Shown here: positions 288 through 46,171 of the stretch, one piece after another
How the letters are laid out: each line of letters opens with the position of its first letter
Position numbering within the stretch: position 1 is the stretch's first letter
From: an uncultured Candidatus Saccharibacteria bacterium
Lineage (GTDB): Bacteria; Patescibacteriota; Minisyncoccia; RBG-13-40-8-A
NCBI GenBank assembly: GCA_965231075.1
Contig: OZ246412.1
Coordinates: 14,224-78,223 of the forward strand
Direction of reading: 5' to 3'
DNA length: 64,000 bases
Program-made: the position numbers and the translations under genes
The notes under the pieces: generated by a model
Told to the model about the DNA's origin: nothing
Seen by the model: the letters and a program-made list of their open reading frames with translations, nothing else
Databases searched by the model: none

Positions 288-659
288 ATGTTTTATTCAT
301 TATTTGGTTTGGGATTCGTAGCAGGATTCTTGATCGTTGTGGGAATTCTTTTCCTATTGGTGAATCTGGGCGTAATTAGTGCTGCAGTTTGGGCATGGTG
401 GCCAATTCTTTTGGTTGTCGTTGGAATTTATATTCTGACTCTAAAGAAGAGAAGAAAGAAAATTGCCGTGCACAATATTTTCTCCAAACTTGCTTCGGAC
501 GACAGAATTCAATCGAAACTTAATAAAATCATTGAAACCGTTGATCAGGTTGTTGAAAAAAAGATAGATGAATGGCACGAAGAAGCAACAGGCGAGAAGG
601 AGGAAGAGGAAACAAGAACACATGAAACCCATCACACAAAATCGAAGATCCAGCTATGA
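288..659 (+). CDS. hypothetical membrane protein with charged C-terminal tail
   Basis: ORF track; two predicted TM helices then a K/E-rich tail; its 3' end overlaps the smpB start. Confidence 0.35.
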   Translation: MFYSLFGLGFVAGFLIVVGILFLLVNLGVISAAVWAWWPILLVVVGIYILTLKKRRKKIAVHNIFSKLASDDRIQSKLNKIIETVDQVVEKKIDEWHEEATGEKEEEETRTHETHHTKSKIQL

Positions 660-1059
660 TTATGAAATATTAGAAACTTACGAGGCCGGTTTAGTGCTTT
701 TTGGTTTTGAAGTAAAAGCGATTAAAACCGGCCATGTTAGTTTAACGGGTTCATTTGTGACAACAAAGAACGGAGAGCTTTTTTTGACGAACGCTCTAAT
801 TCCACCTTACCAGCCCCAAAATACGCCAATCGATTATGATCAATCGCGACCGAGAAAACTTTTATTAAATAAATCAGAAATCAACTCTTTAATTGGTAAA
901 TTAAAAGTAAAAGGGTTGACATTAGTGCCAATTCGGTTATATACTAAGAGGAACAGAATAAAGTTGGAATTCGGGGTCGCTAAAGGAAAGAAGAAATCCG
1001 ACAAAAGAGAAGCGATAAAGAAAAGAGATGCAGAAAGAGAGATGCAAAGGGGGCGCTAG
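622..1059 (+). CDS. smpB: SsrA-binding protein SmpB
   Basis: Translation from internal ATG 622 (MKPITQNRRSSYDYEILETYEAGLVL...GSFVTTKNGELFLTNALIPPYQ...) matches SmpB throughout; tmRNA follows immediately. Confidence 0.85.
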   Translation: MKPITQNRRSSYDYEILETYEAGLVLFGFEVKAIKTGHVSLTGSFVTTKNGELFLTNALIPPYQPQNTPIDYDQSRPRKLLLNKSEINSLIGKLKVKGLTLVPIRLYTKRNRIKLEFGVAKGKKKSDKREAIKKRDAEREMQRGR

Positions 1060-1402
1060 GTTTCGATCGAAGATCTTTTTAAAACAAGCAAATCGAGGAT
1101 TCTAGTATCTCGCTAAAATCTAGAAAAAATAAACGCAAATACAAATTTTGCTTTTGCCACAGCTTAATTTAAGTTGAGGCCACTTCGACGGAGATTCTCA
1201 ATAGGCTGTTGAAGTGTTATAGTGCCATAAGGCACTTGAGATAGATATTGCAATGCCCAAGTTGTAATATTGAAAGTAATTGGGTCGGATTATTCAAATT
1301 TTTGTTTGTTTATGATTTGAATAATTAAGTAAACAAACTACATTTGTAGAATTGTTTTAAATTGTTTTCAAGACGCGGGTTCGACTCCCGCCGTCTCCAC
1401 CA
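1049..1402 (+). ncRNA. ssrA: tmRNA (SsrA)
   Basis: 5' GGGGGCG pairs with 3' CGUCUCC (including G-U pairs), followed by ACCA at 1399-1402. T-arm GCGGGTTCGACTCCCGC at 1376-1392. Internal tag reading frame ~1135-1167 gives ANTNFAFATA-stop (Ala/Phe-rich C-terminus typical of tmRNA tags). Lies directly 3' of smpB, overlapping its stop codon. Confidence 0.8.
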
Positions 1403-22809: not shown

Positions 22810-24858
22810 TCAATCAGTTTTTTCAAATGCACAATCCTTGTTGCTACATTTTATTTTTCTGCTTCGAGTTGTAACAAGTAGTGAATTGCATTTTGGACAA
22901 AGTTCGCCAGTCGGTCTATCCCACAAAGCAAATTTACAGTCTGGGTATTTGCTGCAACTGAAAAATATTTTTCCTCTGCGTGTTTTTCTTTCCAATATCT
23001 TTCCGTCTTTACATTCGGGACATTTTACGTCAGTTGAATTTTCAATATGTTTCGTGTTTTTACATTTAGGAAAATTTGAACAAGCAATGAATTTTCCAAA
23101 TCTTCCTGTTTTAATTACCATTGGCGATCCACACTTCTCACAAACCTGATCAGTTTTCTCGTCTACAACCTCTTTTTTAACAATGTCTGTATATTTTTGT
23201 TTAACATTTTTTTCAAACGGTTTATAAAAACTTTCAATCACGGGTACCCATTCTTTTTTTCCGTCAGCAATTTCATCAAGTTCATTTTCCATATTCGCCG
23301 TAAAATCAATATCCACAATTTCGGGGAAGTGTTCGACCAAAAGTCCATTTACTAAAACTCCAATTTCACTAGGATAAAGATATTTTGCGGTTTTGGTGAC
23401 GTATCCACGCTTTTGAATTGTTTCCATGGTTGGGGCATAAGTTGATGGTCTACCAATGCCATGTTCTTCAAGCGCTTTAATTAAAGTTGCTTCGGTAAAT
23501 GGTGCCGGCGCCTGGGTGAAATGTTGCAGGGAATTTAATTTCAATAAATCTAAAATTTCATTAACTTTAAGTTCTGGTAAAATGGTTTCTTCGGTTTTTG
23601 ATGACCAAACACTCAAAAATCCATCAAATTTAATAATATTTCCATTGGCCTTAAATCCATAACCATTGCCAGCGCTAATATCAATAGAGGTTGAATCGAA
23701 CACAGCAGAATTCATTTGAGAGGCAATTGTTCTGCGCCAAATAAGATTATATAAAGCAAATTGATTTTTATTTAAATAACTTTTTACGTCTTCGGGTTTA
23801 TATTCGGGGAAAGTTGGTCTAATTGCTTCATGTGCTTCTTGCGCGCCTTTGCTTTTGGTTTTATAGAAATTAGGCTGCAAGGGTAAATATTTTTTACCAA
23901 AATCTTTTTCAATTAATTCTCTAGTTTTAGATATTGCTGAGGTTGCCAAATTCAAAGAGTCGGTTCTCATGTATGTGATAAGACCGACTGGTTTTTTATT
24001 TTCCAAAGGAAGCCCTTCGTATAATTGTTGGGCAATAAACATTGTTTGTTTTGCAGAAAATCTTAATTTGCGCGAGGCCTCTTGTTGTAATGTACTGGTT
24101 GTGAATGGGGGAAAAGGATTTCTTTTAACTTCTTTTTTCTCGATGTTTTCAATTTTATACTCGGCATTGGTTAGGTCGTTGATGATATCTTCGGCCTGTT
24201 TCTGGTTTTTAATCTCAAGCTTGTCAACGGTTTTGTTGTTGATTTTATTTAAAGTCGCAACGAAATTTGGGTTGTGTTTAAATTCTGCTTCAATGGTGTG
24301 ATATTCTTCTGGCTTAAACTGATCAATTTCTTTTTGCTTTTCAACCACCAGGCGGACAGCAACCGACTGAACTCTTCCCGCCGAAAGCCCTCTGGCAACC
24401 TTTTTCCACAACAAAGGAGAAAGTTTATAACCAACCAATCTGTCCAGGATTCTTCGTGCTTGTTGTGCATCAACAAGATTTAAATCAATCTCACGCGGAT
24501 TTTTTAAAGCGTCCTCGATGGCTTGTTTGGTAATTTCATGAAAAACAATTCTTTTAGGGTTTTTTAATTTTAATGCTTCGGTTAAATGCCAAGCAATTGC
24601 TTCTCCTTCGCGGTCTTCGTCAGTTGCAAGAATTACTTCGTCTGATTTTTTAACTTTTTCTTTTAGTGCAGTAACATTCTTTCTTGCCTTAGGAACAATA
24701 ATATATTGAGGTTCAAAACCGTTTTCCGTATCAATTGCTAACTTGCTCTTGGGCAAGTCTCGAACATGACCAAAAGAGGATTCAACCATGAATCCCTTGC
24801 CTAAAAATTGTTTAATTGTCTTTGCTTTTGTTGGCGACTCAACAATAATTAAATTCAT
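22810..24858 (-). CDS. topA: DNA topoisomerase I
   Basis: MNLIIVESPTKAKTIKQFLGKGFMVESSFGHVRDLP (TOPRIM), catalytic Tyr region, three C-terminal Cys4 zinc ribbons. Confidence 0.9.
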   Translation of the reverse strand: MNLIIVESPTKAKTIKQFLGKGFMVESSFGHVRDLPKSKLAIDTENGFEPQYIIVPKARKNVTALKEKVKKSDEVILATDEDREGEAIAWHLTEALKLKNPKRIVFHEITKQAIEDALKNPREIDLNLVDAQQARRILDRLVGYKLSPLLWKKVARGLSAGRVQSVAVRLVVEKQKEIDQFKPEEYHTIEAEFKHNPNFVATLNKINNKTVDKLEIKNQKQAEDIINDLTNAEYKIENIEKKEVKRNPFPPFTTSTLQQEASRKLRFSAKQTMFIAQQLYEGLPLENKKPVGLITYMRTDSLNLATSAISKTRELIEKDFGKKYLPLQPNFYKTKSKGAQEAHEAIRPTFPEYKPEDVKSYLNKNQFALYNLIWRRTIASQMNSAVFDSTSIDISAGNGYGFKANGNIIKFDGFLSVWSSKTEETILPELKVNEILDLLKLNSLQHFTQAPAPFTEATLIKALEEHGIGRPSTYAPTMETIQKRGYVTKTAKYLYPSEIGVLVNGLLVEHFPEIVDIDFTANMENELDEIADGKKEWVPVIESFYKPFEKNVKQKYTDIVKKEVVDEKTDQVCEKCGSPMVIKTGRFGKFIACSNFPKCKNTKHIENSTDVKCPECKDGKILERKTRRGKIFFSCSKYPDCKFALWDRPTGELCPKCNSLLVTTRSRKIKCSNKDCAFEKTD

Positions 24859-25721
24859 TTGATTATATAATTATTTTTACCTAAATTCCTAACTGCGTTT
24901 TTTATTTCTAAGATTGTTAATGTTGAATTTACGACTGACACTGGTAGTTTGCTAAGTTTTATTATATCGTCGATATGCATCGGCTGTAAAGAGAGTAGTG
25001 ATAGAATAATTTCTTCTTCCTTGTTCTCTGGTTTGGCTTTGACTTTTGGTGTCTCGGAAAGTAGATGTGTTAAATTCAATTCTTCTAAAATGTCTTCGAC
25101 GCAAGTTACTAATTTTGCTCCCTGTTTAATTAATTTATGTGTGCCTTGTGAATTCTCATCATAAATGTTTCCGGGTACGGCAAATACCTCCTTGTTTTGC
25201 TCGAGTGCTAAATTGGCAGTAATTAACGCCCCACTTTGTTCTGGGGCTTCAATTACTACTACGCCCAAACTTAAACCACTAACAATCCGATTCCTTTCAG
25301 GAAAAGTGTAAATTGCGCCAATTGTTCCTTCGGGATATTCGGTGATTACTGCTCCATTTTGGGCGATTTCTTCTCCCAATGCGTAATTTTGTGATGGCGA
25401 AAAACTTTTTTGATCCATGCCACTTCCCAATACGGCAATTGTTCTTCCGCCTACCTCAATCGCAGCTTTGTGCGCGAACGTATCGATGCCACGGGCCAGT
25501 CCGCTAACAATCGTAATCCCCAGTTTAGCTAATTTGGAAGATAAGTCAAGCGCAACTTGTTTTCCGTAAGCAGAATATTTGCGCGTTCCGACGATTGCAA
25601 TCGCAACTTTGTCTTGATTTTTAATTTCACCCTTAATGAATAATTGTTTGGGAGGGTTGTGTATTTCTTTCAGGGAAGAGGGATAATCTTTATCGTTAAT
25701 TGTGATTTTTTTAATATCCAT
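24855..25721 (-). CDS. dprA: DNA processing protein DprA (Smf)
   Basis: VAIAIVGTRKYSAYGKQVALDLSSKLAKLGITIVSGLARGIDTFAHKAAI (Rossmann-like DprA core). Confidence 0.85.
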   Translation of the reverse strand: MDIKKITINDKDYPSSLKEIHNPPKQLFIKGEIKNQDKVAIAIVGTRKYSAYGKQVALDLSSKLAKLGITIVSGLARGIDTFAHKAAIEVGGRTIAVLGSGMDQKSFSPSQNYALGEEIAQNGAVITEYPEGTIGAIYTFPERNRIVSGLSLGVVVIEAPEQSGALITANLALEQNKEVFAVPGNIYDENSQGTHKLIKQGAKLVTCVEDILEELNLTHLLSETPKVKAKPENKEEEIILSLLSLQPMHIDDIIKLSKLPVSVVNSTLTILEIKNAVRNLGKNNYIIK

Positions 25722-28033: not shown

Positions 28034-29374
28034 ATGAAACAAGAAAAAAAGAAAAGAGGAAGGCCATCGAAGCCAAGAAAACCCAAAATTGCTAAAATAA
28101 AAATTCAAGCACCAAAGGGAGTGCACGATATTTTGCCCGACGATCAAAAATATTGGGAAAAGCTTTATGCTGTAATTACCCAGGTTTTGCCAGGGTATGG
28201 ATTTAAAAGAATCGATGTTCCAGTTTTCGAAGATGCGCGTCTCTATTTAAGGGGCACCGGTTCAACTACGGATATTGTGCAAAAAGAAATGTATACCTTT
28301 AAAAAGGGCGATGCAGAAACTTTTGCGCTTCGCCCGGAATTTACTCCGGGAATTGTGCGGGCATATATTGAACACGGAATGAAAAACCTGCCACAGCCAG
28401 TAAAGCTTTATACCACTGGACCACTGTTTAGACACGATAAACCACAGGCGGGCAGATACAGACAATTTAATCAAATTGATTGGGAAATCATTGGTGATCA
28501 GGGAGCAGTAAGTGACGTGCAGGTCATCCAAACATTTACAAGTATTCTAAAAAAACTTAACCTTAAAAAATACACATTATATATTAATAGTATTGGTTGT
28601 CCGATTTGTGTCCCAAAATATAAAAAGGCACTGATTGGTTATTATAAACAACACCTTAACAGTGTTTGTCCAGATTGTCATCGCCGATTTAAAGAAAACC
28701 CATTAAGATTGTTGGACTGTAAAAACGAAAAATGTCAGAAGACGTCTTTAAAATCACCACAGATATTAGATTTTCTTTGCGATGAATGTCACAAACATTT
28801 TAAAGAAGTATTAGAATTTCTCGATGAATTAAACATTCCTTATCAACTGAATCCTCAACTGGTCCGAGGTCTTGATTATTATACAAAAACCGTTTTTGAG
28901 TTTTATGAAGACACCAAAGAAACTTCGTCACAGGGAGCATTAATGGGCGGGGGAAGATACGATAATCTTGTAGAGATGTTTAAGGGTAGATCGACGCCGG
29001 GAGTGGGTGCGGCAGCGGGAATGGAGCGATTGATAAACGTAGTCAAAAAACAAGATGTTAAATTAATCGAGAAAGAAAAAGCCAAAGTGTTCTTGATCCA
29101 ATTGGGTGACATGGGAAAGAAAAAATGTTTAAAATTGTTTGAAGAATTTCACGCCAAAGGAATTAAAATTGGCGAGGCATTTTCTAAAGAAAGCATTAAG
29201 TCACAATTAAAGGTCGCAGACAAAGAGGGCGCAGAGTGGGCATTAATTATGGGTCAACGAGAAGCACTTGAAGACACTATAATCATTAAAGACATGAAAA
29301 CCGGCGCCCAAGAAACAATAAGATTAGACAGAATAATTAACGAAGTTAAAAAAAGAATAGATTCACCCCGTTAA
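28034..29374 (+). CDS. hisS: histidyl-tRNA synthetase
   Basis: Class II motifs (ALRPEFTPGIVRAY, GGGRYDNLV), Cys-rich insertion, C-terminal anticodon-binding domain. Confidence 0.9.
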   Translation: MKQEKKKRGRPSKPRKPKIAKIKIQAPKGVHDILPDDQKYWEKLYAVITQVLPGYGFKRIDVPVFEDARLYLRGTGSTTDIVQKEMYTFKKGDAETFALRPEFTPGIVRAYIEHGMKNLPQPVKLYTTGPLFRHDKPQAGRYRQFNQIDWEIIGDQGAVSDVQVIQTFTSILKKLNLKKYTLYINSIGCPICVPKYKKALIGYYKQHLNSVCPDCHRRFKENPLRLLDCKNEKCQKTSLKSPQILDFLCDECHKHFKEVLEFLDELNIPYQLNPQLVRGLDYYTKTVFEFYEDTKETSSQGALMGGGRYDNLVEMFKGRSTPGVGAAAGMERLINVVKKQDVKLIEKEKAKVFLIQLGDMGKKKCLKLFEEFHAKGIKIGEAFSKESIKSQLKVADKEGAEWALIMGQREALEDTIIIKDMKTGAQETIRLDRIINEVKKRIDSPR

Positions 29375-29420
29375 ATCCCGCGGAGCGGGTTCGCCGAAGG
29401 CGAAATTTAACAGGGGTAAA
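29361..29420 (+). repeat. 60-nt structured repeat element, copy A (terminal inverted repeats CCCCGTTAAAT/ATTTAACAGGGG enclosing two hairpins); overlaps the hisS stop codon, upstream of rpsU
   Basis: 56/60 identity to copy B at 30691-30750; the differences are compensatory within hairpin stems. Confidence 0.6.
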
Positions 29421-29432
29421 GTAAAACAATAT

Positions 29433-29645
29433 ATGCAGGTTACAAAAAAACCAAAAGAAAACGTGTCTTCTTTAATGAGACGATTCTCGCAAAAGGTGAG
29501 GGAAAGCGGAATTTTAATGGAAGCAAAAAAATCGCAATTTCGCACAAAACCACAAAGCCGAATTACGCGCAGAAAGGGTGCCTTGGAGAGAGTCTCAATT
29601 AGAAAAGCAAAAATGCGTTTAAGAAAATTTGGAAAAACTAAATAA
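29433..29645 (+). CDS. rpsU: 30S ribosomal protein S21
   Basis: ENVSSLMRRFSQKVRESGILMEAKKSQFRTKPQSRITRRK aligns with the S21 family. Confidence 0.8.
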   Translation: MQVTKKPKENVSSLMRRFSQKVRESGILMEAKKSQFRTKPQSRITRRKGALERVSIRKAKMRLRKFGKTK

Positions 29646-29661
29646 TTAATTTTTCAAAAAT

Positions 29662-30150
29662 ATGTTACGAGAAAAAATTAATGGTGATATCAAGCAAGCA
29701 ATGATTGCGAAGCAAGAGTTGTTGCTTTTGGTTTTAAGGGGGATTAATTCCTCGATAAAAAATAAGGAAATCGAGAAAAGAACAAAACTTGTTAAAACAG
29801 AGAAGGATCTCACAAAAGTTGATGAATTATGCAAATTAAACGACGAAGAAATAATCGACGTAATTTCTAGTGAAGCCAAAAAACGAAAAGACTCGATCGA
29901 AGAATTCACTAAGGGCAACAGAATGGACTTAGTGGAAAAAGAACAAAAAGAATTAGAAATTTTAAAACAATATTTGCCAGAACAAATGTCGGAAGACGCA
30001 GTAAGAGAGATTATCAAGAAAGCAATCGAAGAAACCGGTGCGGCCGGACCAAAAGACACGGGAAAAGTAATGGCAAAAATTATGCCACAAGTCAAAGGCA
30101 AAGCTGACGGTTCATTGGTCAGTAAAATCGTTGGGGAATTATTAAAATAA
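29662..30150 (+). CDS. GatB/YqeY domain protein
   Basis: C-terminal ...KQYLPEQMSEDAVREIIKKAIEETGAAGPKDTGKVMAKIMPQVKGKADGSLVSKIV is the YqeY/GatB C-terminal signature; the rpsU-yqeY adjacency is conserved. Confidence 0.75.
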   Translation: MLREKINGDIKQAMIAKQELLLLVLRGINSSIKNKEIEKRTKLVKTEKDLTKVDELCKLNDEEIIDVISSEAKKRKDSIEEFTKGNRMDLVEKEQKELEILKQYLPEQMSEDAVREIIKKAIEETGAAGPKDTGKVMAKIMPQVKGKADGSLVSKIVGELLK

Positions 30151-30161
30151 ATAACAAATAT

Positions 30162-30299
30162 ATGAACAACGAAACAAATATTTTTGCGAAAAAATTGCCG
30201 GGATGGATTTTTGTTGTCGCCATGTTTTTTGCAGCAGTGGCCGTGGTCTTAATTGCTCAGGGCGCATTTTTGATTATTGACGACATGAGCAAGATATAA
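30162..30299 (+). CDS. possible small (45 aa) membrane protein
   Basis: ATG ORF with one strongly hydrophobic helix (WIFVVAMFFAAVAVVLIAQGAFLII); no clear SD; below the ORF-track length cutoff. Confidence 0.3.
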   Translation: MNNETNIFAKKLPGWIFVVAMFFAAVAVVLIAQGAFLIIDDMSKI

Positions 30300-30302
30300 T
30301 AA

Positions 30303-30704
30303 ATGAAAGTTGAGATAAATAAATTGGTTCCCGACAAGATTGATTTTGAATTTTTAGAGAAATTTGTACAAAAGGTTTTAAAATTGGTAAAATTAAATAT
30401 TCCCGAATTAAGTGTGGTTTTAGTTTGCGACGCACGGATGAAATCTATAAACAAAAAATATCGCAACAAAAACAAAACCACAGATGTGCTGTCGTTTGAT
30501 TACGGAGAAGTAATCGTTTGTTTAAATCAAGCCAAAAGACAAGCAAAAAAAGAGAAACACTCAATCGAAGACGAATTAGAAACACTATTACTTCATGGTA
30601 TACTTCATTTGGCAGGTTACGATGACCAAACAAATGATGGCTATGGAAAAATGGTCAACAAGCAAAATCAAGTTTTAAGAAAAATGAAAAATTCACCCCG
30701 TTAA
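30303..30704 (+). CDS. ybeY: rRNA maturation endoribonuclease YbeY
   Basis: LLHGILHLAGYDDQ (H3xH5xH zinc motif region) and the typical ~130-aa length. Confidence 0.8.
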   Translation: MKVEINKLVPDKIDFEFLEKFVQKVLKLVKLNIPELSVVLVCDARMKSINKKYRNKNKTTDVLSFDYGEVIVCLNQAKRQAKKEKHSIEDELETLLLHGILHLAGYDDQTNDGYGKMVNKQNQVLRKMKNSPR

Positions 30705-30750
30705 ATCCCACGAAGTGGGTTCGCCAAAGGCGAAATTTAACAGGGGTAAA
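30691..30750 (+). repeat. 60-nt structured repeat element, copy B; overlaps the ybeY stop codon, immediately upstream of the ftsA SD
   Basis: See copy A; stem CCCAC/GTGGG here versus CCCGC/GCGGG in copy A. Confidence 0.6.
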
Positions 30751-30759
30751 AAAGGAGGT

Positions 30760-32019
30760 ATGGGAAGAAATCAAATCATAGTTGGGCTAGATGTTGGCAC
30801 GAGCAAAGTAAGAACCGTGGCGGCATCAATCAGAACCAAAGAAGAAGCAAAACCAAGAATTATTGGTATTGGTGAAAGTGGTTCTTTTGGTATGCGCAAG
30901 GGCATGGTCGTAGACATTGAAGAAATGACCAAGAGTATCAAAAAATCAATTGAACAAGCCGAAAGAATGATTGGCGATTCGATTGATAAAGTTTATGTGG
31001 CAGTTGGGGGAAGTCACATCAAAGCCAGAAATAGCAAAGGAGTAGCCGCGGTTTCGCGAGCCGATAATAATGAATTTACCGACGGCGATATGAATCGTGC
31101 AATCACCAATGCTTCTGCCGTCTCTTTGGGGCCGAATAAAGAAATTTTAGATATTATTTCGCAGGAATTTAATATTGATGGTCAAGGCGGAATACAAGAT
31201 CCACGCGGTATGAGCGGAGTGAGATTAGAAGTTGATACCTTAATTATTGAAGGTCAGGCACAATATTTGAAAAATTTAAGAAAATGTTTAACTTTAAATA
31301 GAATTGAACCAGAAGCGTTAATTTTAGATGTATTAGCGGCGTCAGATGCAGTACTTTCAAAGAAACAAAAGGAGTTGGGTGTTTTGGTTTTAGACCTAGG
31401 CGCGGGTACGACCGGCATGGCCGTATATGAAGAAGGCAAACTACTGGATGTCCAAATCCTACCAATCGGCTCTAGCCACATTACTTATGACATAGCCATT
31501 GGCCTAAAAACCAGTCCCGACGTTGCCGAAAAAGTTAAAATTGCTTATGGTACCTGTTTGCCCGAAGAAATTGGCAAGAAAGACATTATCGACTTATCAA
31601 AAATAGATGAAAATGAAGAAGGGGTTGCTAGCAGAAAAGAAATGTCGCGGATTATCGAAGCAAGGATTGATGAAATTTTCGAATTGGTAAATAAAGAACT
31701 AAAAAGAATTGGCAGAGAAAGAAAATTGCCATCGGGGGTTATTTTGGTTGGTGGCGGTTCAAAAATATCTGGAATTATTGATTTAGCGAAAGACAAATTG
31801 AAATTAAATGTTCAAATTGGGTATCCGCAAGAAATTGATGGATTAGTAGACAAGGTTGACGACCCAGGATTTGCCACAGCCGTAGGACTAATTCATAAAG
31901 CCATGGAACTACAAGACAGGGGGGAAGATATAAGAATTCCGCTCATCGGAAATTTAAATCATAAAAGTAAAGGATTGTTGGATAGGGTTAAAAAGATATT
32001 TCGACCGTTTATCCCATAG
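30760..32019 (+). CDS. ftsA: cell division protein FtsA
   Basis: Start at ATG 30760 preceded by AAAGGAGG; IVGLDVGTSKVRTVAA...actin-like ATPase motifs; the GTG-extended track ORF (30715) would read through the repeat element. Confidence 0.85.
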   Translation: MGRNQIIVGLDVGTSKVRTVAASIRTKEEAKPRIIGIGESGSFGMRKGMVVDIEEMTKSIKKSIEQAERMIGDSIDKVYVAVGGSHIKARNSKGVAAVSRADNNEFTDGDMNRAITNASAVSLGPNKEILDIISQEFNIDGQGGIQDPRGMSGVRLEVDTLIIEGQAQYLKNLRKCLTLNRIEPEALILDVLAASDAVLSKKQKELGVLVLDLGAGTTGMAVYEEGKLLDVQILPIGSSHITYDIAIGLKTSPDVAEKVKIAYGTCLPEEIGKKDIIDLSKIDENEEGVASRKEMSRIIEARIDEIFELVNKELKRIGRERKLPSGVILVGGGSKISGIIDLAKDKLKLNVQIGYPQEIDGLVDKVDDPGFATAVGLIHKAMELQDRGEDIRIPLIGNLNHKSKGLLDRVKKIFRPFIP

Positions 32020-36937: not shown

Positions 36938-38263
36938 ATGAGAATTTCAAACATTTTTCTTGTTATTTGTTTGATATCTATTGTGGTCGTATTTTTTGTG
37001 TCGCCGAAAATGTTGGAGAAAAATATCCCTCAATCCCTGCCGGGCGAGGGCGTTTTTGTCGGCGAGGTGACTAAAGAGCCAAATACAAAAAGTAATAACA
37101 TTCAGTTGACACTAAAAACAGAAATTGGAAAAATCTTGGTTACTGTGCCGAATTATCCAGAATATTTTTATGGCGACGTTTTAAAAATAACCGGTAAGTT
37201 GCAATTCCCGACGGTATTCGAAGACTTTAATTATAAAAATTATTTGGCAAAAGATAAAATTTATTACGTTAGTTATTATCCAAAAATAGAAACCTTAAAC
37301 AGAAATCAAGGCAATAAAATTTTTTCTCTAATTTTAAAATTTAAAAACAATCTTACGCAAAAAGTGGAAACTCTAATGCCGTTTCCCGAAGTTTCAATTT
37401 TAGAAGGAATTATTTTGGGCAACAAGCAAATATTTTCTGAAGAAATTAAAAATAATCTGAGTATTACCGGCACAAGTCACATTACCGCAATTTCAGGAAT
37501 GAACATTGTAATTATTTCTGAAATTTTAATGATCGTTTTGATTGGTTTGGGACTATGGCGGAAACAAGCATTTTATTTTGTTGTGGTTTTAATCGTCTTG
37601 TTTATTTTGATGGTTGGTGCACCGGCTTCAGCGGTACGTGCCGGGATTATGGGTATGATTTTGCTATATGCAAAAAAAATCGGACGATTAAATAGTCCTG
37701 TGCGAATCATGATTTTTGCGGGGGCGATTATGCTCGCGTTTAATCCATTGTTATTAAGATACGATATCGGATTCCAACTTTCATTTTTGGCCGTTTTAGG
37801 ATTGATCTACATTAAGCCAATTTTCGATAATCTCTGGGGCAAACTATTAAAAAAAGAGCACATTGGCTCGGTTTTAGAAATCATTAATACGACCATTGCC
37901 GCACAAATATCAGTTTTAGGAATCTTGATTTATAATTTTGGAAAAATTTCTTTTATCTCGCCAGTCGCCAATATTGTAATTGTGCCATTTATAACCTTGC
38001 TAACAATTATTGGTATAATTTTCATTGGGGGACTAACAATATCTGGGTTTCTGGGAAAAATTTTACTTTGGCCGGTATATATTGGCACAACTTATGTGTT
38101 GCGAGTCATCAATTGGCTAGCCCAAATTCCCTGGGCTTCAAAACAAATTTTAGGGGTCCACTGGTCTTGGGTGGTCGTTTATTATATTTTATTAATTGGA
38201 TCGATTGTTTTTTATAATTTCCGAATAAAAAGGTCTACAACACAACACGAGCCATCACAATGA
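36938..38263 (+). CDS. comEC: ComEC/Rec2 competence channel, N-terminal part (DUF4131 + competence domain)
   Basis: ITGTSHITAISGMNIVII and a polytopic membrane profile. Confidence 0.8.
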   Translation: MRISNIFLVICLISIVVVFFVSPKMLEKNIPQSLPGEGVFVGEVTKEPNTKSNNIQLTLKTEIGKILVTVPNYPEYFYGDVLKITGKLQFPTVFEDFNYKNYLAKDKIYYVSYYPKIETLNRNQGNKIFSLILKFKNNLTQKVETLMPFPEVSILEGIILGNKQIFSEEIKNNLSITGTSHITAISGMNIVIISEILMIVLIGLGLWRKQAFYFVVVLIVLFILMVGAPASAVRAGIMGMILLYAKKIGRLNSPVRIMIFAGAIMLAFNPLLLRYDIGFQLSFLAVLGLIYIKPIFDNLWGKLLKKEHIGSVLEIINTTIAAQISVLGILIYNFGKISFISPVANIVIVPFITLLTIIGIIFIGGLTISGFLGKILLWPVYIGTTYVLRVINWLAQIPWASKQILGVHWSWVVVYYILLIGSIVFYNFRIKRSTTQHEPSQ

Positions 38264-43333: not shown

Positions 43334-46171
43334 ATGTTTAAAAAGACATTTTTTGTATTTGTGGGATTAATTTCAATAATCTCTAGTTTTTTTATAATTA
43401 ATTCGATTTTGGGGACAAAAGAAGCGGTGGCAGGGGACTCCGTTGTTCTCATTTCTCCTAACGGCGGAGAAAGAGTAGAGATTGGGAAAACTTATAGAAT
43501 TAGATTTAATACAACCATATCCAATGATCGATATTATATGTCGTTGTTAAAAAACGGATCTAATTATATGCAGGTATTGGGTTCTTATTCTTATGCTTCT
43601 GGTGAAAATTATTTTGATTGGAATGTTCCAACTGGAACAGTAATATCTCCAGGCGATAATTATAAAATAAAGATTTATAATTTAAATGGGACAGTTGAGG
43701 ACACAAGTGATGCAAATTTTACTATTTTTTCAAATCTACCAGCGGTGACGGTTGTTTCACCCAATGGTGGAGAGAAGATTGTTAAGGGGCAAAATTATAA
43801 AATCGAATGGAACGTCAATTGGATGCCACATCCGTTTGATGCGGAGGGTGCAGAAAATAAAGTTGATATTCTTTATCGTCGAACAACTGGATCCGATCAA
43901 ACAAATTCCGGCATTATTTACGGAGAATATAATCATGAAGCGATTAATAATTATTATATGTGGTCAGTTCCAAACACGCTTCCGGATGGCACCTATAGAA
44001 TTACCATTAGAGCACGTGGCATCTATTCCAATTTGTTAGACGAGGGTGATGCAGATTTTAATATTATTACCACGAATGATACGCCTCCTGGCATTAGAAT
44101 AACTTCTCCGGGCGGTGGAGAAAATTGGGAAATCGGAAAAACTCACAACATTACATGGGAATCAATTAATTTTTCATCCAATGTTGATATTTCGATATGT
44201 AAAGAATCTCTGGGATCTGGTTGTGTTGCTTATATAGCGAAAAATATTTCTAATACAGGTTCTTATATTTGGGATACAAAAAATCCTTTAATTACTGTTT
44301 CGTCGTATTCGTTATCCGTTTTATCGAAGGGCAATGATTATAAGATTTATGTGGCCAGCACAGATAAAAAAGTGAGTGACGGAAGCGAATATTTCAGTTT
44401 TGTTAACGCTTTTAGTTGCACTGATTCTGATAACGGTAAGGATTATTATGCTCAAGGTAACACGTTTGGCACAAGAGATGCAACTCCGTATTCAATAACT
44501 GATTGGTGTGATGGCTCCACACGACTTGTAGAGAATTTTTGCACAGGAAATGTTTTTGGTAATGAATATTATACTTGTCCTAACGGTTGCGAAAATGGAG
44601 CATGTAAGCCAGACAAGCCAGATTTAACAATTAAAGAAAATCCGTCGTTTTATTCGTCCTGGGGAGGATTCAATAATGTGATTGTTGCAAGTGTTTGCAA
44701 CGACGGGAAAGATTTTGTTGTGCCACAATATTTTAATGTCGAATTTAAAGTATCCGACATCAACAAACAAGCAACGTGGGTTGGCTATCAGGGGGAAACA
44801 TTTTACAAAAACACATGTAAGTCGGTTTTTACAACGGCTTCTAGTTTAAATATAACTACATCTGGTACGTATAATTTTATAACGACAGTAGACAGCTCCG
44901 GTCGCGTAGACGAAAGCAACGAACTTAACAATGGAAAGATCAATGCGGTCACAATAACAATAGGTGATAGTGGTAAATGTTTTGATTCTGACAGCGGAAG
45001 GAATTATTATACAAAAGGATATACGACTTATGCGGGATATACTGATGCAAGCGGACAATTAATAAAAGAATATGATACGTGTGTCGGAAACATACTTCAA
45101 GAAAAATATTGTCCAAGCAGTGGACTGGGTACAATCGATTATACCTGTCCCAACGGTTGCGAAAATGGAGCATGTAAAAAAGATGATTACAATTCTTTAG
45201 ATATATATGCCCCGGAAGTTAATGGTATGAGCGTCAGTTTAAATGGAGTTACTGCCCCACAGGGTTGTGGAAGCAATGACTTAACCTGGTGTAAACAAAT
45301 TAATCCAAGTGCTGATGGAAATGGTCCGTGGGAATTTAATTGGAAAGATGGCACCAAAAGCTGTTCTTGGTTTCCTGGCAAACATACCTATAAAAACAAT
45401 GGCACTTACGATATTGAGGTCCGAGTTAAAAATACGTGTGGGTATATTTCGGCACGTACTTCGCAGACTATTAGTATCAAGGAGGTTGTTTCTGGCGAAT
45501 GTCTACCCGATGGCACTCTAATTAAAATCCCCACTGATCCTAAAATTTACGTAATTAGAAACTGTAAAAAAGAATGGATTCAGACTGCCGAAGAATTCAG
45601 ACAAGAAGGATACAAGTGGGAAGATGTTAAAGAGGTTAATTCTTCGGTTGTTCAATCGTATAGCGATTATTTGCAGTCAACAGCTAATCTTTTAAGGGCG
45701 ATTGGTCAGCAAAAAGTCTATCGTGTTGTTGACGGAAAAATCCTTTGGGTTCCTACCGTTTCTGCTTTTAACGCTCAGGGATTAAAGTGGGAAGACATTC
45801 AAAATGTCGATTCATCGATAATTAATCAATATTCAAGATTAAAATTGGTCAGAATAAAAGGAGATCCAAAAGTTTATTATTTAACAGAAAGCGGGCTCAA
45901 GAGGTGGGTCCCCACAATAGAAATATTTAATTCCTACAACAATAAATGGGAAGACGTAATTGAACTAGAGAAGAAAGACGTAAATGGATATTCCGACAAC
46001 GTTTTTATAAAATTAGAAAATGACTCTAGGGTTTACAAGATAGAGAACGGCAAGAAAAGATGGATTAAAACCGAAGCAGCGCTCAAGAGATTAGGCGTCG
46101 ATTGGAGTATAGTTGCACCCGTTAATCAAGCAGAGTTTAACTTCTATCCCGAAGGAGCTGTTATTGAATAA
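43334..46171 (+). CDS. large secreted or surface protein with three repeat classes
   Basis: Signal peptide; 3x ~95-aa SPNGGE...Y.I.W domains; 2x Cys-rich module ending CPNGCENGACK; 4x ~40-aa C-terminal repeats of the pattern KvY...gkk.W(i/v)pT.e.f...G..WeDV..v. Confidence 0.6.
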   Translation: MFKKTFFVFVGLISIISSFFIINSILGTKEAVAGDSVVLISPNGGERVEIGKTYRIRFNTTISNDRYYMSLLKNGSNYMQVLGSYSYASGENYFDWNVPTGTVISPGDNYKIKIYNLNGTVEDTSDANFTIFSNLPAVTVVSPNGGEKIVKGQNYKIEWNVNWMPHPFDAEGAENKVDILYRRTTGSDQTNSGIIYGEYNHEAINNYYMWSVPNTLPDGTYRITIRARGIYSNLLDEGDADFNIITTNDTPPGIRITSPGGGENWEIGKTHNITWESINFSSNVDISICKESLGSGCVAYIAKNISNTGSYIWDTKNPLITVSSYSLSVLSKGNDYKIYVASTDKKVSDGSEYFSFVNAFSCTDSDNGKDYYAQGNTFGTRDATPYSITDWCDGSTRLVENFCTGNVFGNEYYTCPNGCENGACKPDKPDLTIKENPSFYSSWGGFNNVIVASVCNDGKDFVVPQYFNVEFKVSDINKQATWVGYQGETFYKNTCKSVFTTASSLNITTSGTYNFITTVDSSGRVDESNELNNGKINAVTITIGDSGKCFDSDSGRNYYTKGYTTYAGYTDASGQLIKEYDTCVGNILQEKYCPSSGLGTIDYTCPNGCENGACKKDDYNSLDIYAPEVNGMSVSLNGVTAPQGCGSNDLTWCKQINPSADGNGPWEFNWKDGTKSCSWFPGKHTYKNNGTYDIEVRVKNTCGYISARTSQTISIKEVVSGECLPDGTLIKIPTDPKIYVIRNCKKEWIQTAEEFRQEGYKWEDVKEVNSSVVQSYSDYLQSTANLLRAIGQQKVYRVVDGKILWVPTVSAFNAQGLKWEDIQNVDSSIINQYSRLKLVRIKGDPKVYYLTESGLKRWVPTIEIFNSYNNKWEDVIELEKKDVNGYSDNVFIKLENDSRVYKIENGKKRWIKTEAALKRLGVDWSIVAPVNQAEFNFYPEGAVIE

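What the first reader, a model, noticed from the sequence alone, without database searches (positions are those of the whole stretch)
29361..30750. Two copies of a 60-nt inverted-repeat element with compensatory hairpin changes, overlapping stop codons upstream of rpsU and ftsA
Copy A (29361-29420) and copy B (30691-30750) share ATTCACCCCGTTAAATCCC[GCGGAGCGGG/ACGAAGTGGG]TTCGCC[G/A]AAGGCGAAATTTAACAGGGGTAAA.
- Structure: the terminal inverted repeats CCCCGTTAAAT / ATTTAACAGGGG form an outer helix around two hairpins.
- Covariation: hairpin 1 is CCCGC-GGA-GCGGG in copy A and CCCAC-GAA-GTGGG in copy B (G to A paired with C to T), so pairing is preserved. Hairpin 2 (TTCGCC-GAA-GGCGAA) changes only in its loop.
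- Gene overlap: both copies begin inside the last three codons of unrelated genes (hisS and ybeY both end ...SPR-stop, TCACCCCGTTAA) and end just before the next start codon (rpsU; for ftsA right before the AAAGGAGG SD).
- Interpretation: the covariation suggests a functional RNA structure (processing or protein-binding site, small riboswitch-like regulator of S21/FtsA) or a MITE-like element that supplies a stop codon. I do not recognise it as a known family.
Basis: seen in the sequence. Interest (0 to 1): 0.75.

Follow-up and report, generated by a model that had tools for sequence, protein, structure and literature searches.

The report
Tiny mobile palindrome rewriting gene ends
The two 60-nt repeats are copies of a very short palindromic mobile DNA element found in many uncultivated bacterial phyla; here it landed in the last codons of hisS and ybeY and supplies their stop codons, and elsewhere it sits in frame inside essential proteins, so it is not a regulator of rpsU or ftsA.

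Summary
There are two 93%-identical copies and no others in the window. Each folds into an outer helix plus two hairpins, and each supplies the stop codon of hisS or ybeY.

- **Insertion.** Of 120 HisS orthologues, 118 end ...K* or similar, not ...SPR*. Sister genomes show the empty site, and the old AAG-TAA still follows the element.
- **Spread.** The same arms (CCCCGTTAAAT...ATTTAACGGGG) occur in at least 120 loci labelled as about 10 phyla, in both orientations and sometimes in tandem.
- **In-frame copies.** The element also sits inside EF-G, TIM, PolA, TsaD and other genes, encoding HPVKS...FNGVK.
- **Reading frames.** One frame is open, one stops at TCA-CCC-CGT-TAA (the window case), and one stops at GGGG-TAA.
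- **Hairpins.** They covary strongly but are almost pure Watson-Crick palindromes with no strand bias. At the ybeY-ftsA site, relatives keep the arms and have a different interior.

No Rfam hit, linked transposase or published description was found. The closest analogue is the Rickettsia palindromic element. I read it as a new short, cross-phylum variant with no evident target duplication. Its mobilising enzyme is unknown.

The parts
29364..29418 (+). Copy A of the element (unit CAC...GTA, 55 nt), inserted in the last codons of hisS. The boundary is uncertain by 1 nt: the T at 29363 may belong to the insert.
   Evidence: Filled versus empty sites.
29364..29376 (+). Copy A 5' arm, CACCCCGTTAAAT. 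It contains the new hisS stop codon TAA at 29372-29374.
   Evidence: The arm is invariant across the family.
29377..29389 (+). Copy A hairpin 1, CCCGC-GGA-GCGGG.
29390..29404 (+). Copy A hairpin 2, TTCGCC-GAA-GGCGAA.
29405..29418 (+). Copy A 3' arm, ATTTAAC-A-GGGGTA. The extra A is specific to this subfamily.
29419..29424 (+). Displaced original end of hisS (AAG TAA, Lys-stop), now untranslated.
   Evidence: Empty sites in L122 and L129 read ...AAG TAA. HisS orthologues end in K.
30694..30748 (+). Copy B of the element, in the last codons of ybeY and directly upstream of the ftsA Shine-Dalgarno sequence.
   Evidence: Orthologous copies in relatives are shown.
30694..30706 (+). Copy B 5' arm. 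It contains the ybeY stop codon TAA at 30702-30704.
30707..30719 (+). Copy B hairpin 1, CCCAC-GAA-GTGGG. It carries the compensatory change relative to copy A.
30720..30734 (+). Copy B hairpin 2, TTCGCC-AAA-GGCGAA.
30735..30748 (+). Copy B 3' arm, ATTTAAC-A-GGGGTA.
30751..30762 (+). ftsA Shine-Dalgarno sequence (AAGGAGG) and true start ATG at 30760. Not part of the element, but it defines the element's context.
   Evidence: The conserved ATGGGAAGAAATCAAATCATAG start appears in relatives.

Best explanation
Both repeats are copies of a very short (about 45-70 nt), non-autonomous, palindromic mobile DNA element.

**Anatomy.** The family has near-invariant 13-15-nt inverted arms, TT|CACCCCGTTAAAT ... 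ATTTAACGGGGTA|AA. The interior is variable. In about half of the copies it consists of two abutting, perfectly Watson-Crick hairpins.

**Insertion.** The element inserts at A/T-rich (T)T|AA sites. I could detect no target-site duplication.

**Reading frames.** The arms carry stop codons in two of the three frames. The third frame is open and reads HPVKS...FNGVK; the opposite orientation reads YPVKS...FNGV. In compact genomes, copies therefore survive in three places: in spacers, in frame inside tolerant protein loops, or in the last few codons of a gene.

**The window.**
- Copy A entered just before the final Lys codon of hisS. ...IDK* became ...IDSPR*.
- Copy B sits at the end of ybeY, which in relatives without the element overlaps ftsA.
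- The element now supplies both stop codons and places a stable three-way junction between cistrons.

**Shown.**
- Insertion polymorphism.
- Family membership.
- The reading-frame logic.
- In-frame copies in other genomes.
- The palindromic, DNA-type nature of the hairpins.
- Turnover of the interior at a fixed site.

**Inferred.**
- Mobilisation in trans by an unidentified enzyme that recognises the arms.
- Any effect on mRNA stability or on translational coupling.
For: **Insertion.**
- 118 of 120 HisS orthologues lack the SPR tail; nearly all end in Lys (...KKRxxK*). Only the window and P0014 end ...SPR*.
- L129/L130 (empty) read aggc-AAG-TAA-aaaatcATG. L126 (filled) reads aggt-[TCACCCC...GGGGTA]-AAG-TAA-aaaatcATG. 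L122 versus the window shows the same.
- HisS identities are window-P0001 92%, P0014-P0016 96.6% and window-P0014 83%. The same site is therefore filled in two separate clades whose sisters are empty.
- One contig (L122 and L155) has ybeY filled and hisS empty.

**Family.**
They carry labels for Patescibacteria, Desulfobacterota, WOR-3/Stahlbacteria, Bacteroidota, Gammaproteobacteria, Omnitrophota, Cloacimonadota and others.
- Single MAGs hold several copies, and some copies are tandem with a fixed GGGG-TTCA-CCCC spacer.
- A polar end signature is conserved: 27 of 59 perfect-arm copies carry TCA...TAA flanks, against 1 each for the two symmetric forms.
- Orientation relative to genes is mixed, 20 co-directional and 10 opposite.

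**Coding compatibility.**
- In-frame copies occur in EF-G, TIM, PolA, TsaD (two copies), a RecG-like protein, a glycosyltransferase and an ABC ATPase.
- They are insertions relative to solved homologues: TIM against 1b9b and EF-G against 6not.
- 8 of 120 TsaD homologues carry element peptides at three or more sites and in both orientations. The net gain is exactly 18 aa at a TTT|AAC-type F|N junction.
- The CAC...GTA unit length is a multiple of 3 in 29 of 58 copies and in 7 of the 8 in-frame copies listed; the eighth, L016, has a variant GGGGTTA end.
- 10 of 45 TCA-oriented copies end an ORF of at least 60 codons at the internal TAA, as in the window.

**Hairpins.**
- On 12 aligned copies, 99.5% of cells are paired. 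9 of 11 hairpin pairs change on both sides and none changes on one side only.
- In 38 distinct two-hairpin copies there are 427 Watson-Crick and 11 G-T pairs on one strand, and 416 and 7 on the other.

**Turnover.** Orthologous ybeY-ftsA copies keep the arms and the site. Their interior is different, carries compensatory changes, or is reduced to one hairpin.

**Not a known RNA.** No Rfam hit. No promoter-like or terminator-like site on the + strand.
Against: - No autonomous partner or transposase was found. None lies in the window, which is entirely housekeeping. None recurs next to copies in 120 loci.
- No target-site duplication is visible, which is atypical for DDE-type MITEs.
- The insert boundary is ambiguous by 1 nt. 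In-frame copies imply the unit CAC...GTA at TT|AA. The two hisS filled/empty pairs show one extra T.
- The ybeY copy has persisted across YbeY proteins of 56-100% identity with intact arms. That could reflect a host function rather than selfish persistence.
- Phylum labels are the MAG submitters' own. Some could be binning errors.
Confidence: 0.85

Rival explanations
1. The element is mobile in origin but has been co-opted by the host. On this reading it acts as an intercistronic RNA structure in the hisS-rpsU...ybeY-ftsA-ftsZ transcript: a 3'-exonuclease barrier, an RNase III-type processing site, or an uncoupler of translation. That would resemble what is known for REP, ERIC and Correia elements. 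This reading is compatible with the main explanation.
For: - The fold is stable on the mRNA strand, at -25 to -27 kcal/mol.
- An element has been retained at the ybeY-ftsA junction across a clade whose YbeY proteins are 56-100% identical. The arms are intact and the hairpins still pair.
- In L156 the arm change GTTGAAT still allows a G-U pair on the mRNA strand.
- In relatives without the element, ybeY overlaps ftsA, so the insertion changes coupling.
Against: - The closest relatives function without it at hisS-rpsU.
- There is no orientation rule relative to genes.
- Hairpin pairing shows no strand bias and almost no G-U pairs.
- The interior is replaced wholesale at the same site.
- There is no terminator-like U tract.
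Confidence: 0.2
2. The element is a dedicated cis-regulatory RNA (riboswitch-like or protein-binding leader) that controls S21 and FtsA synthesis.
For: - It lies immediately upstream of rpsU and ftsA.
- It has a structured fold with a compensatory change.
Against: - It is absent upstream of rpsU in 118 of 120 relatives.
- The same element lies next to, and inside, unrelated genes in many phyla and in both orientations.
- There is no conserved unpaired nucleotide that could form a ligand pocket. The interior is fully paired and its sequence varies.
- No Rfam hit.
Confidence: 0.03
3. The element is a site for site-specific recombination: an integron attC-like folded site, or a Xer/dif-like site formed when the two ends are joined. 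On this reading it is moved by a tyrosine recombinase rather than a transposase.
For: - The arms contain GTTAAAT/ATTTAAC, which fits the attC core consensus GTTRRRY/RYYYAAC and the outer end of the E. coli dif XerD arm. Both comparisons are from my own knowledge and were not tested.
- Joined or tandem ends give two 11-nt inverted arms with a 4-5-nt spacer.
- There is no target duplication.
- The interior is swapped at a fixed site.
Against: - The order of the boxes is reversed relative to attC: GTTAAAT comes first and ATTTAAC last on both strands.
- There are no cassette arrays and no integrase nearby.
- Insertion sites are diverse, with only a (T)T|AA preference.
- The 4-5-nt spacer is shorter than the usual 6-8.
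Confidence: 0.07
4. The repeats are a chance or assembly artefact, or a simple local duplication, with no wider meaning.
For: There are only two copies in the 64 kb.
Against: - Zero matches are expected by chance.
- An independent assembly (L121) contains both copies.
- There are hundreds of related copies in independent assemblies.
Confidence: 0.01

Closest known systems
Rickettsia palindromic elements (RPE; Ogata et al. 2000, as summarised in PMC10969869)
   Same: - Short palindromic repeats with no coding capacity of their own.
- They insert in frame into unrelated, often essential, protein genes and are read through as extra peptide segments.
- They are also found between genes.
- The mobilising enzyme is unknown.
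   Different: - RPEs are about 100-150 bp and confined to Rickettsia (PMC10969869). This family is 45-70 nt and carries the same arms in MAGs labelled as about 10 phyla.
- Here the arms are near-invariant while the interior is swappable.
- Sequence relatedness to RPE families was not tested.
Bacterial MITEs (Correia/NEMIS, RUP, ERIC, Nezha and others)
   Same: - Terminal inverted repeats.
- Small size.
- Multiple copies per genome.
- Insertion polymorphism.
- Occasional in-frame or gene-end insertions.
- Potential to fold in transcripts.
   Different: - No target-site duplication is detectable.
- No cognate insertion sequence with the same ends was found.
- This family is much shorter than typical MITEs.
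- A single polar mismatch (TCA...TAA) is conserved.
REP/BIME and REPIN elements mobilised by RAYT (HUH) transposases
   Same: - Short GC-rich palindromes.
- Inverted doublets forming long hairpins.
- Clustering at gene 3' ends.
- Tandem arrays.
- No target duplication.
   Different: - REPs are extragenic and species-specific, and carry motifs such as GTAG (from my own knowledge). This family is also intragenic, cross-phylum and lacks that motif.
- No RAYT-like gene was seen near copies or in the window.
Integron attC sites
   Same: - An imperfect palindrome that acts as a folded strand.
- Conserved 7-nt boxes matching GTTRRRY/RYYYAAC.
- A variable central structure.
   Different: - The box order and orientation are reversed.
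- The hosts here are housekeeping operons, not cassette arrays.
- No IntI was found.

Membership tests
MITE (miniature inverted-repeat transposable element) | Terminal inverted repeats | tested here: met
   13-15-nt arms TT(C/T)ACCCCGTTAAAT / ATTTAACGGGGT(A/G)AA.
MITE (miniature inverted-repeat transposable element) | Small, non-coding, multicopy, with presence/absence polymorphism | tested here: met
   - Size is 45-70 nt.
- Single MAGs hold several copies.
- Filled and empty sites are shown.
MITE (miniature inverted-repeat transposable element) | Target-site duplication flanking the element | tested here: not met
   - The L126 versus L129 pair shows the insert followed by unchanged AAGTAAAAAATC, with no direct repeat.
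- Flanks are T(T) and AA, not a duplication.
- The boundary is uncertain by 1 nt.
MITE (miniature inverted-repeat transposable element) | A related autonomous insertion sequence with the same ends that encodes the transposase | tested here: inconclusive
   - No long-range arm pairs around an ORF in 120 loci.
- No recurrent transposase-like ORF cluster.
- None in the window.
- Whole genomes could not be searched.
Rickettsia palindromic elements (RPE) | Palindromic repeat inserted in frame in protein-coding genes | tested here: met
Rickettsia palindromic elements (RPE) | Sequence homology to RPE-1 to RPE-10, and a Rickettsia host | not tested
- The hosts here are CPR and other phyla.
- The length is 45-70 nt, against about 150 bp for RPEs (PMC10969869).
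REP/REPIN-RAYT | Strictly extragenic location | tested here: not met
   In-frame intragenic copies.
REP/REPIN-RAYT | A cognate RAYT (IS200-like HUH) gene in the genome | not testable with these tools
   Only 8-kb loci and one 64-kb window were held. None was seen in them.
Integron attC | 5'-RYYYAAC ... GTTRRRY-3' box order, with adjacent cassettes and IntI | tested here: not met
   Both strands read GTTAAAT...ATTTAAC. The context is housekeeping genes.
Any Rfam family (riboswitch, leader, ribozyme, sRNA) | Covariance-model match | tested here: not met
   No hit at gathering thresholds in the window. Nothing overlaps the elements meaningfully at E<=10.
Intrinsic (Rho-independent) terminator | GC-rich hairpin followed by a U tract on the transcribed strand | tested here: not met
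   The + strand shows GGGGTAAA after the helix. No + strand terminator-like site was found.

The most novel reading that the evidence does not exclude
This would be a previously undescribed, cross-phylum class of 45-70-nt mobile palindromes.
- It has invariant arms and exchangeable hairpin cassettes.
- It is moved without target duplication by an enzyme not yet identified. That enzyme could be widespread or host-encoded, for example a recombinase or HUH nuclease that acts on the folded arms.
- It repeatedly adds 18-21-residue loops to essential proteins such as EF-G, TIM, PolA and TsaD.
- It rewrites gene ends in streamlined CPR genomes.
Probability: 0.35. Interest if true: 0.8.

Novelty: new variant of a known kind. 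Interest (0 to 1): 0.62.

Why it matters
**Annotation.**
- The element creates false C-termini (...SPR*).
- It creates false N-terminal extensions: FtsA is called from a GTG inside the element.
- It adds 18-21-residue inserts to core proteins of CPR and other uncultivated bacteria.

**Biology.**
- It shows that even roughly 0.6-Mb, spacer-poor genomes tolerate a mobile element, because the element is built to be readable in one frame and to end translation cleanly in the others.
- Identical arms across distant phyla point to horizontal spread and to a conserved but unknown mobilising activity.
- That activity can now be sought by correlating element presence with gene content.

**Method.** The case is also a caution: perfect compensatory changes in a hairpin can come from DNA palindromes and need not indicate a functional RNA.

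Tried and rejected
- **Rfam.** Gathering thresholds and E<=10 gave nothing.
- **Literature.** Searches by arm sequence and by topic (MITE, palindromic element, CPR, RPE) found no description of this family.
- **Linked transposase.** Long-range arm pairs, all-against-all clustering of 1017 ORFs from 120 loci and Pfam on 40 window ORFs found none.
- **Phage vector.** Only 4 IMG/VR contigs matched, all the same locus.
- **Strand-specific RNA.** Folding energies and G-T counts show no bias. Rejected.
- **attC reading.** Rejected, because the box order is reversed.
- **TA or TTAA target duplication.** The flanks are not direct repeats.
- **Exact insert boundary.** The in-frame copies and the hisS pairs disagree by 1 nt. 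The P0021 allele ends GGC-TAA, so it does not settle the question.
- **Covariance model.** Not built. MAFFT misaligned hairpins of unequal length, so pairs were counted on a uniform subset instead.
Full report
**1. Observation**

- Copy A lies at 29361-29420 and copy B at 30691-30750. They form the only long two-copy direct repeat of this kind in the window, 89% identical over 71 nt.
- A pattern that masks the four variable positions matches only these two sites, with none expected by chance.
- Single-arm, fuzzy-arm and six-frame peptide searches find no further copy in the 64 kb.
- Both copies fold into an outer helix enclosing two abutting hairpins, with no unpaired junction nucleotides. Energies are -26.9 and -25.4 kcal/mol on the + strand and -30.3 and -28.7 on the - strand. 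No shuffle folds as well.
- HisS (28034..29374) and YbeY (30303..30704) both end ...SPR*, using TCA-CCC-CGT-TAA of the 5' arm.
- rpsU starts 12 nt after copy A. The ftsA Shine-Dalgarno sequence and its ATG at 30760 directly follow copy B.
- Rfam gives nothing at gathering thresholds or at E<=10.

**2. It is an insertion**

The host is a Portnoybacteria/Paceibacterota-type CPR bacterium, going by the names attached to its homologues.

- *C-termini.* Of 120 HisS orthologues, 118 lack the SPR tail, and nearly all end in Lys (...KKR(I/L)xK*). Only the window protein (...IDSPR*) and P0014 (...LGSPR*) carry the SPR tail.
- *DNA of the sites.*
  - L129/L130 (empty) read agattaggc-AAG-TAA-aaaatcATG.
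  - L126 (filled) reads agattaggt-[TCACCCC...CAGGGGTA]-AAG-TAA-aaaatcATG.
  - L122 versus the window shows the same pattern.
  - The original Lys-stop is still present directly after the element, at window 29419-29424.
- *Two separate clades.* HisS identities are window-P0001 92%, P0014-P0016 96.6% and window-P0014 83%. The same nucleotide position is therefore filled in two clades whose nearest sisters are empty. This points to independent hits or lateral transfer of the allele, not to a conserved regulatory feature.
- *Independent occupancy.* One contig (L122 and L155) has hisS empty and ybeY filled. L126 has hisS filled and ybeY empty.

**3. It belongs to a large, cross-phylum family**

By my own rough estimate, a pattern with 21 specified bases would give on the order of ten chance hits in that collection.
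- *Record titles.*

| Label on the record | Loci |
|---|---|
| Patescibacteria lineages | about 34 |
| Desulfobacterota | about 27 |
| WOR-3/Stahlbacteria | about 14 |
| Bacteroidota | about 12 |
| Gammaproteobacteria-labelled MAGs | about 10 |
| Omnitrophota, Cloacimonadota, Bdellovibrionales, Calditrichaceae and others | the rest |

- *Within genomes.* Several MAGs contribute multiple contigs. Copies within one genome share interior sequence, which indicates amplification inside that genome. Tandem copies occur with a fixed GGGG-TTCA-CCCC junction.
- *Flanks.* The consensus is R-T-T|CACCCC...GGGGTA|A-A.
- *Polarity.* Among 59 perfect-arm copies, 27 carry TCA on one side and TAA on the other. 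Each of the two symmetric combinations occurs once.
- *Orientation.* Relative to neighbouring genes it is mixed, 20 co-directional and 10 opposite.
- *Other collections.* Only one phage locus carries a copy. A metagenome scan for the window's own subfamily found 15 loci.

**4. Reading frames explain the stop-codon overlap**

In other genomes the same element lies inside long ORFs.
- The hosts are EF-G (L061), triosephosphate isomerase (L029), DNA polymerase I (L023), TsaD (two copies, L111), a RecG-like protein (L082), a glycosyltransferase (L016), an ABC ATPase (L033) and one more protein (L096).
- The encoded peptide is x-HPVKS-(8-12 small or polar residues)-FNGVK. In the opposite orientation it is YPVKS...FNGxK.
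- Alignment to solved structures shows these are insertions. TIM against 1b9b has a gap of about 17 residues. EF-G against 6not jumps from query residue 77 to 106 while the chain stays at residue 85.
- Among 120 TsaD homologues, 8 carry such peptides at three or more sites and in both orientations. Against an empty homologue the gain is exactly 18 residues, at KKK-F|N-TT.

The three frames behave differently.
- CAC-CCC-GTT-AAA...TTT-AAC-GGG-GTA is open.
- TCA-CCC-CGT-TAA stops in the 5' arm.
- The third frame stops at GGGG-TAA.

Two counts fit this.
- The CAC...GTA unit is a multiple of 3 in 29 of 58 copies and in 7 of the 8 in-frame copies listed; the eighth, L016, has a variant GGGGTTA end.
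- 10 of 45 TCA-oriented copies terminate an ORF of at least 60 codons at the internal TAA, as in the window.

My inference is that, in genomes where hisS and rpsU are 3-13 nt apart and ybeY overlaps ftsA, only three kinds of insertion survive: in spacers, in frame in tolerant loops, or in the last codons of a gene. The window shows the third kind twice.

**5. What the covariation means**

- On 12 copies of uniform architecture, 99.5% of cells pair. Nine of the 11 hairpin pairs change on both sides and none changes on one side only. The A/T part of the outer helix never varies.
- Across 59 copies, 30 have two hairpins, 22 have one and 7 have none. Neither strand folds consistently better.
- In 38 distinct two-hairpin copies there are 427 Watson-Crick and 11 G-T pairs on one strand, and 416 and 7 on the other.
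- This is the signature of DNA palindromes, or of a constraint acting on both strands. It is not what selection on a single-strand RNA would give, because that tolerates G-U pairs on one strand only.
- Quasi-palindrome correction by template switching can produce 'compensatory' changes in one step. This is established knowledge and was not tested here.

**6. Turnover at a fixed site**

YbeY homologues of 56-81% identity also end in SPR. Their DNA shows the element at the same position with the same arms but a different interior.
- L152-L155 carry AATCGC-CCT-GCGATT plus GCCGC-TTC-GCGGC.
- L154 carries a compensatory GTCGC/GCGAC.
- L156 has a single hairpin and a GTTGAAT arm.
- The window has CCCAC-GAA-GTGGG plus TTCGCC-AAA-GGCGAA.

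The arms therefore persist while the interior is exchanged. One plausible route is insertion next to a resident copy followed by recombination between arms, since tandem copies exist. This route is an inference.

**7. What was not found**

- There is no transposase or recombinase in the window. The 40 ORFs scanned are housekeeping: aminoacyl-tRNA synthetases, SmpB, IF3, topoisomerase I, NrdD, EF-G and ribosomal proteins. DprA and ComEC are also present.
- No protein family recurs next to copies.
- No long element is bounded by the arms.
- There is no target duplication.
- The insert boundary is uncertain by 1 nt. In-frame copies imply CAC...GTA at TT|AA. The hisS pairs show one additional T. 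The P0021 allele, which ends GGC-TAA, does not resolve this.
- No promoter-like or terminator-like site is associated with the copies on the + strand.
- Literature searches by sequence and by topic found no description. The library lacks most subscription journals.

**8. Comparison and verdict**

- *Closest analogue.* Functionally this is nearest to the Rickettsia palindromic elements, which are palindromic repeats inserted in frame in many genes (PMC10969869).
- *Differences from RPEs.* This family is about half to a third of their size. It has invariant arms with a swappable interior. It occurs in many phyla.
- *MITE criteria.* It meets inverted repeats, small size, copy number and polymorphism. 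It shows no target duplication and no cognate insertion sequence.
- *Excluded.* It is not an attC site, an intrinsic terminator or any Rfam family.
- *Classification.* I classify it as a new variant of a known kind, short palindromic mobile DNA.
The MITE-like alternative is supported.
- *Secondary role.* A role as an intercistronic RNA structure cannot be excluded and needs transcript data.

Noticed in passing
window 30715-30759 (and L121 4283-5587): Automatic gene calling starts FtsA at a GTG inside copy B, giving 434 aa with the N-terminus MGSPKAKFNRGKKGG. Relatives show the true start is the ATG at 30760, after the AAGGAGG Shine-Dalgarno sequence. The element's open frame therefore creates a false N-terminal extension.
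   Followed up: partly
L111 (TsaD, two copies); P0186-P0298: A Moranbacteria TsaD carries two in-frame copies of the element. 8 of 120 TsaD homologues carry element-coded peptides at three or more positions (around residues 124, 255 and 343) and in both orientations. This indicates repeated independent hits in permissive loops.
   Followed up: partly
L009, L060, L078, L084 (Desulfobacterota loci): Longer variants contain a second, degenerate arm pair nested inside the outer arms (GCCCCGTTGAAT...ATTCAACTCGGGC). These look like an element within an element, or a duplicated module.
   Followed up: no
L024, L028, L036, L038, L068, L114, L117 (WOR-3/Stahlbacteria): A subfamily has the same core arms, an unstructured A/T-rich interior and inverted repeats extended outward (CGCAGATTYACCCC...GGGGTRAATCTGCG). 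The recognised end may be longer in that lineage.
   Followed up: no
L133-L136 (IMG/VR contigs): One phage locus, present on four viral contigs, carries a Desulfobacterota-type copy. It is the only viral occurrence found.
   Followed up: no
window 568-1402: The SmpB gene (568-1056) is immediately followed by the tmRNA gene (1049-1402; Rfam 135.7 bits), and the two overlap by a few bases.
   Followed up: no
window 24858-25721 (-) and 36938-38260 (+): DprA and a ComEC-type competence protein are encoded in the window. DNA uptake plus homologous recombination could move filled alleles between related strains. This is an inference only.
   Followed up: no
window 43334-46168, repeats at 44524-44607 and 45094-45177: A 945-aa protein with a Kre9/KNH-like Ig-like domain contains internal repeats that end in the conserved motif YTCPNGCENGAC (74% DNA identity between the two units). 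It is probably a repetitive surface protein.
   Followed up: no
window 30162-30299: A 45-aa ORF with a hydrophobic core lies between yqeY and ybeY and has no Pfam match. It is called as a gene in the independent assembly L121. Relatives carry different genes at this position.
   Followed up: no
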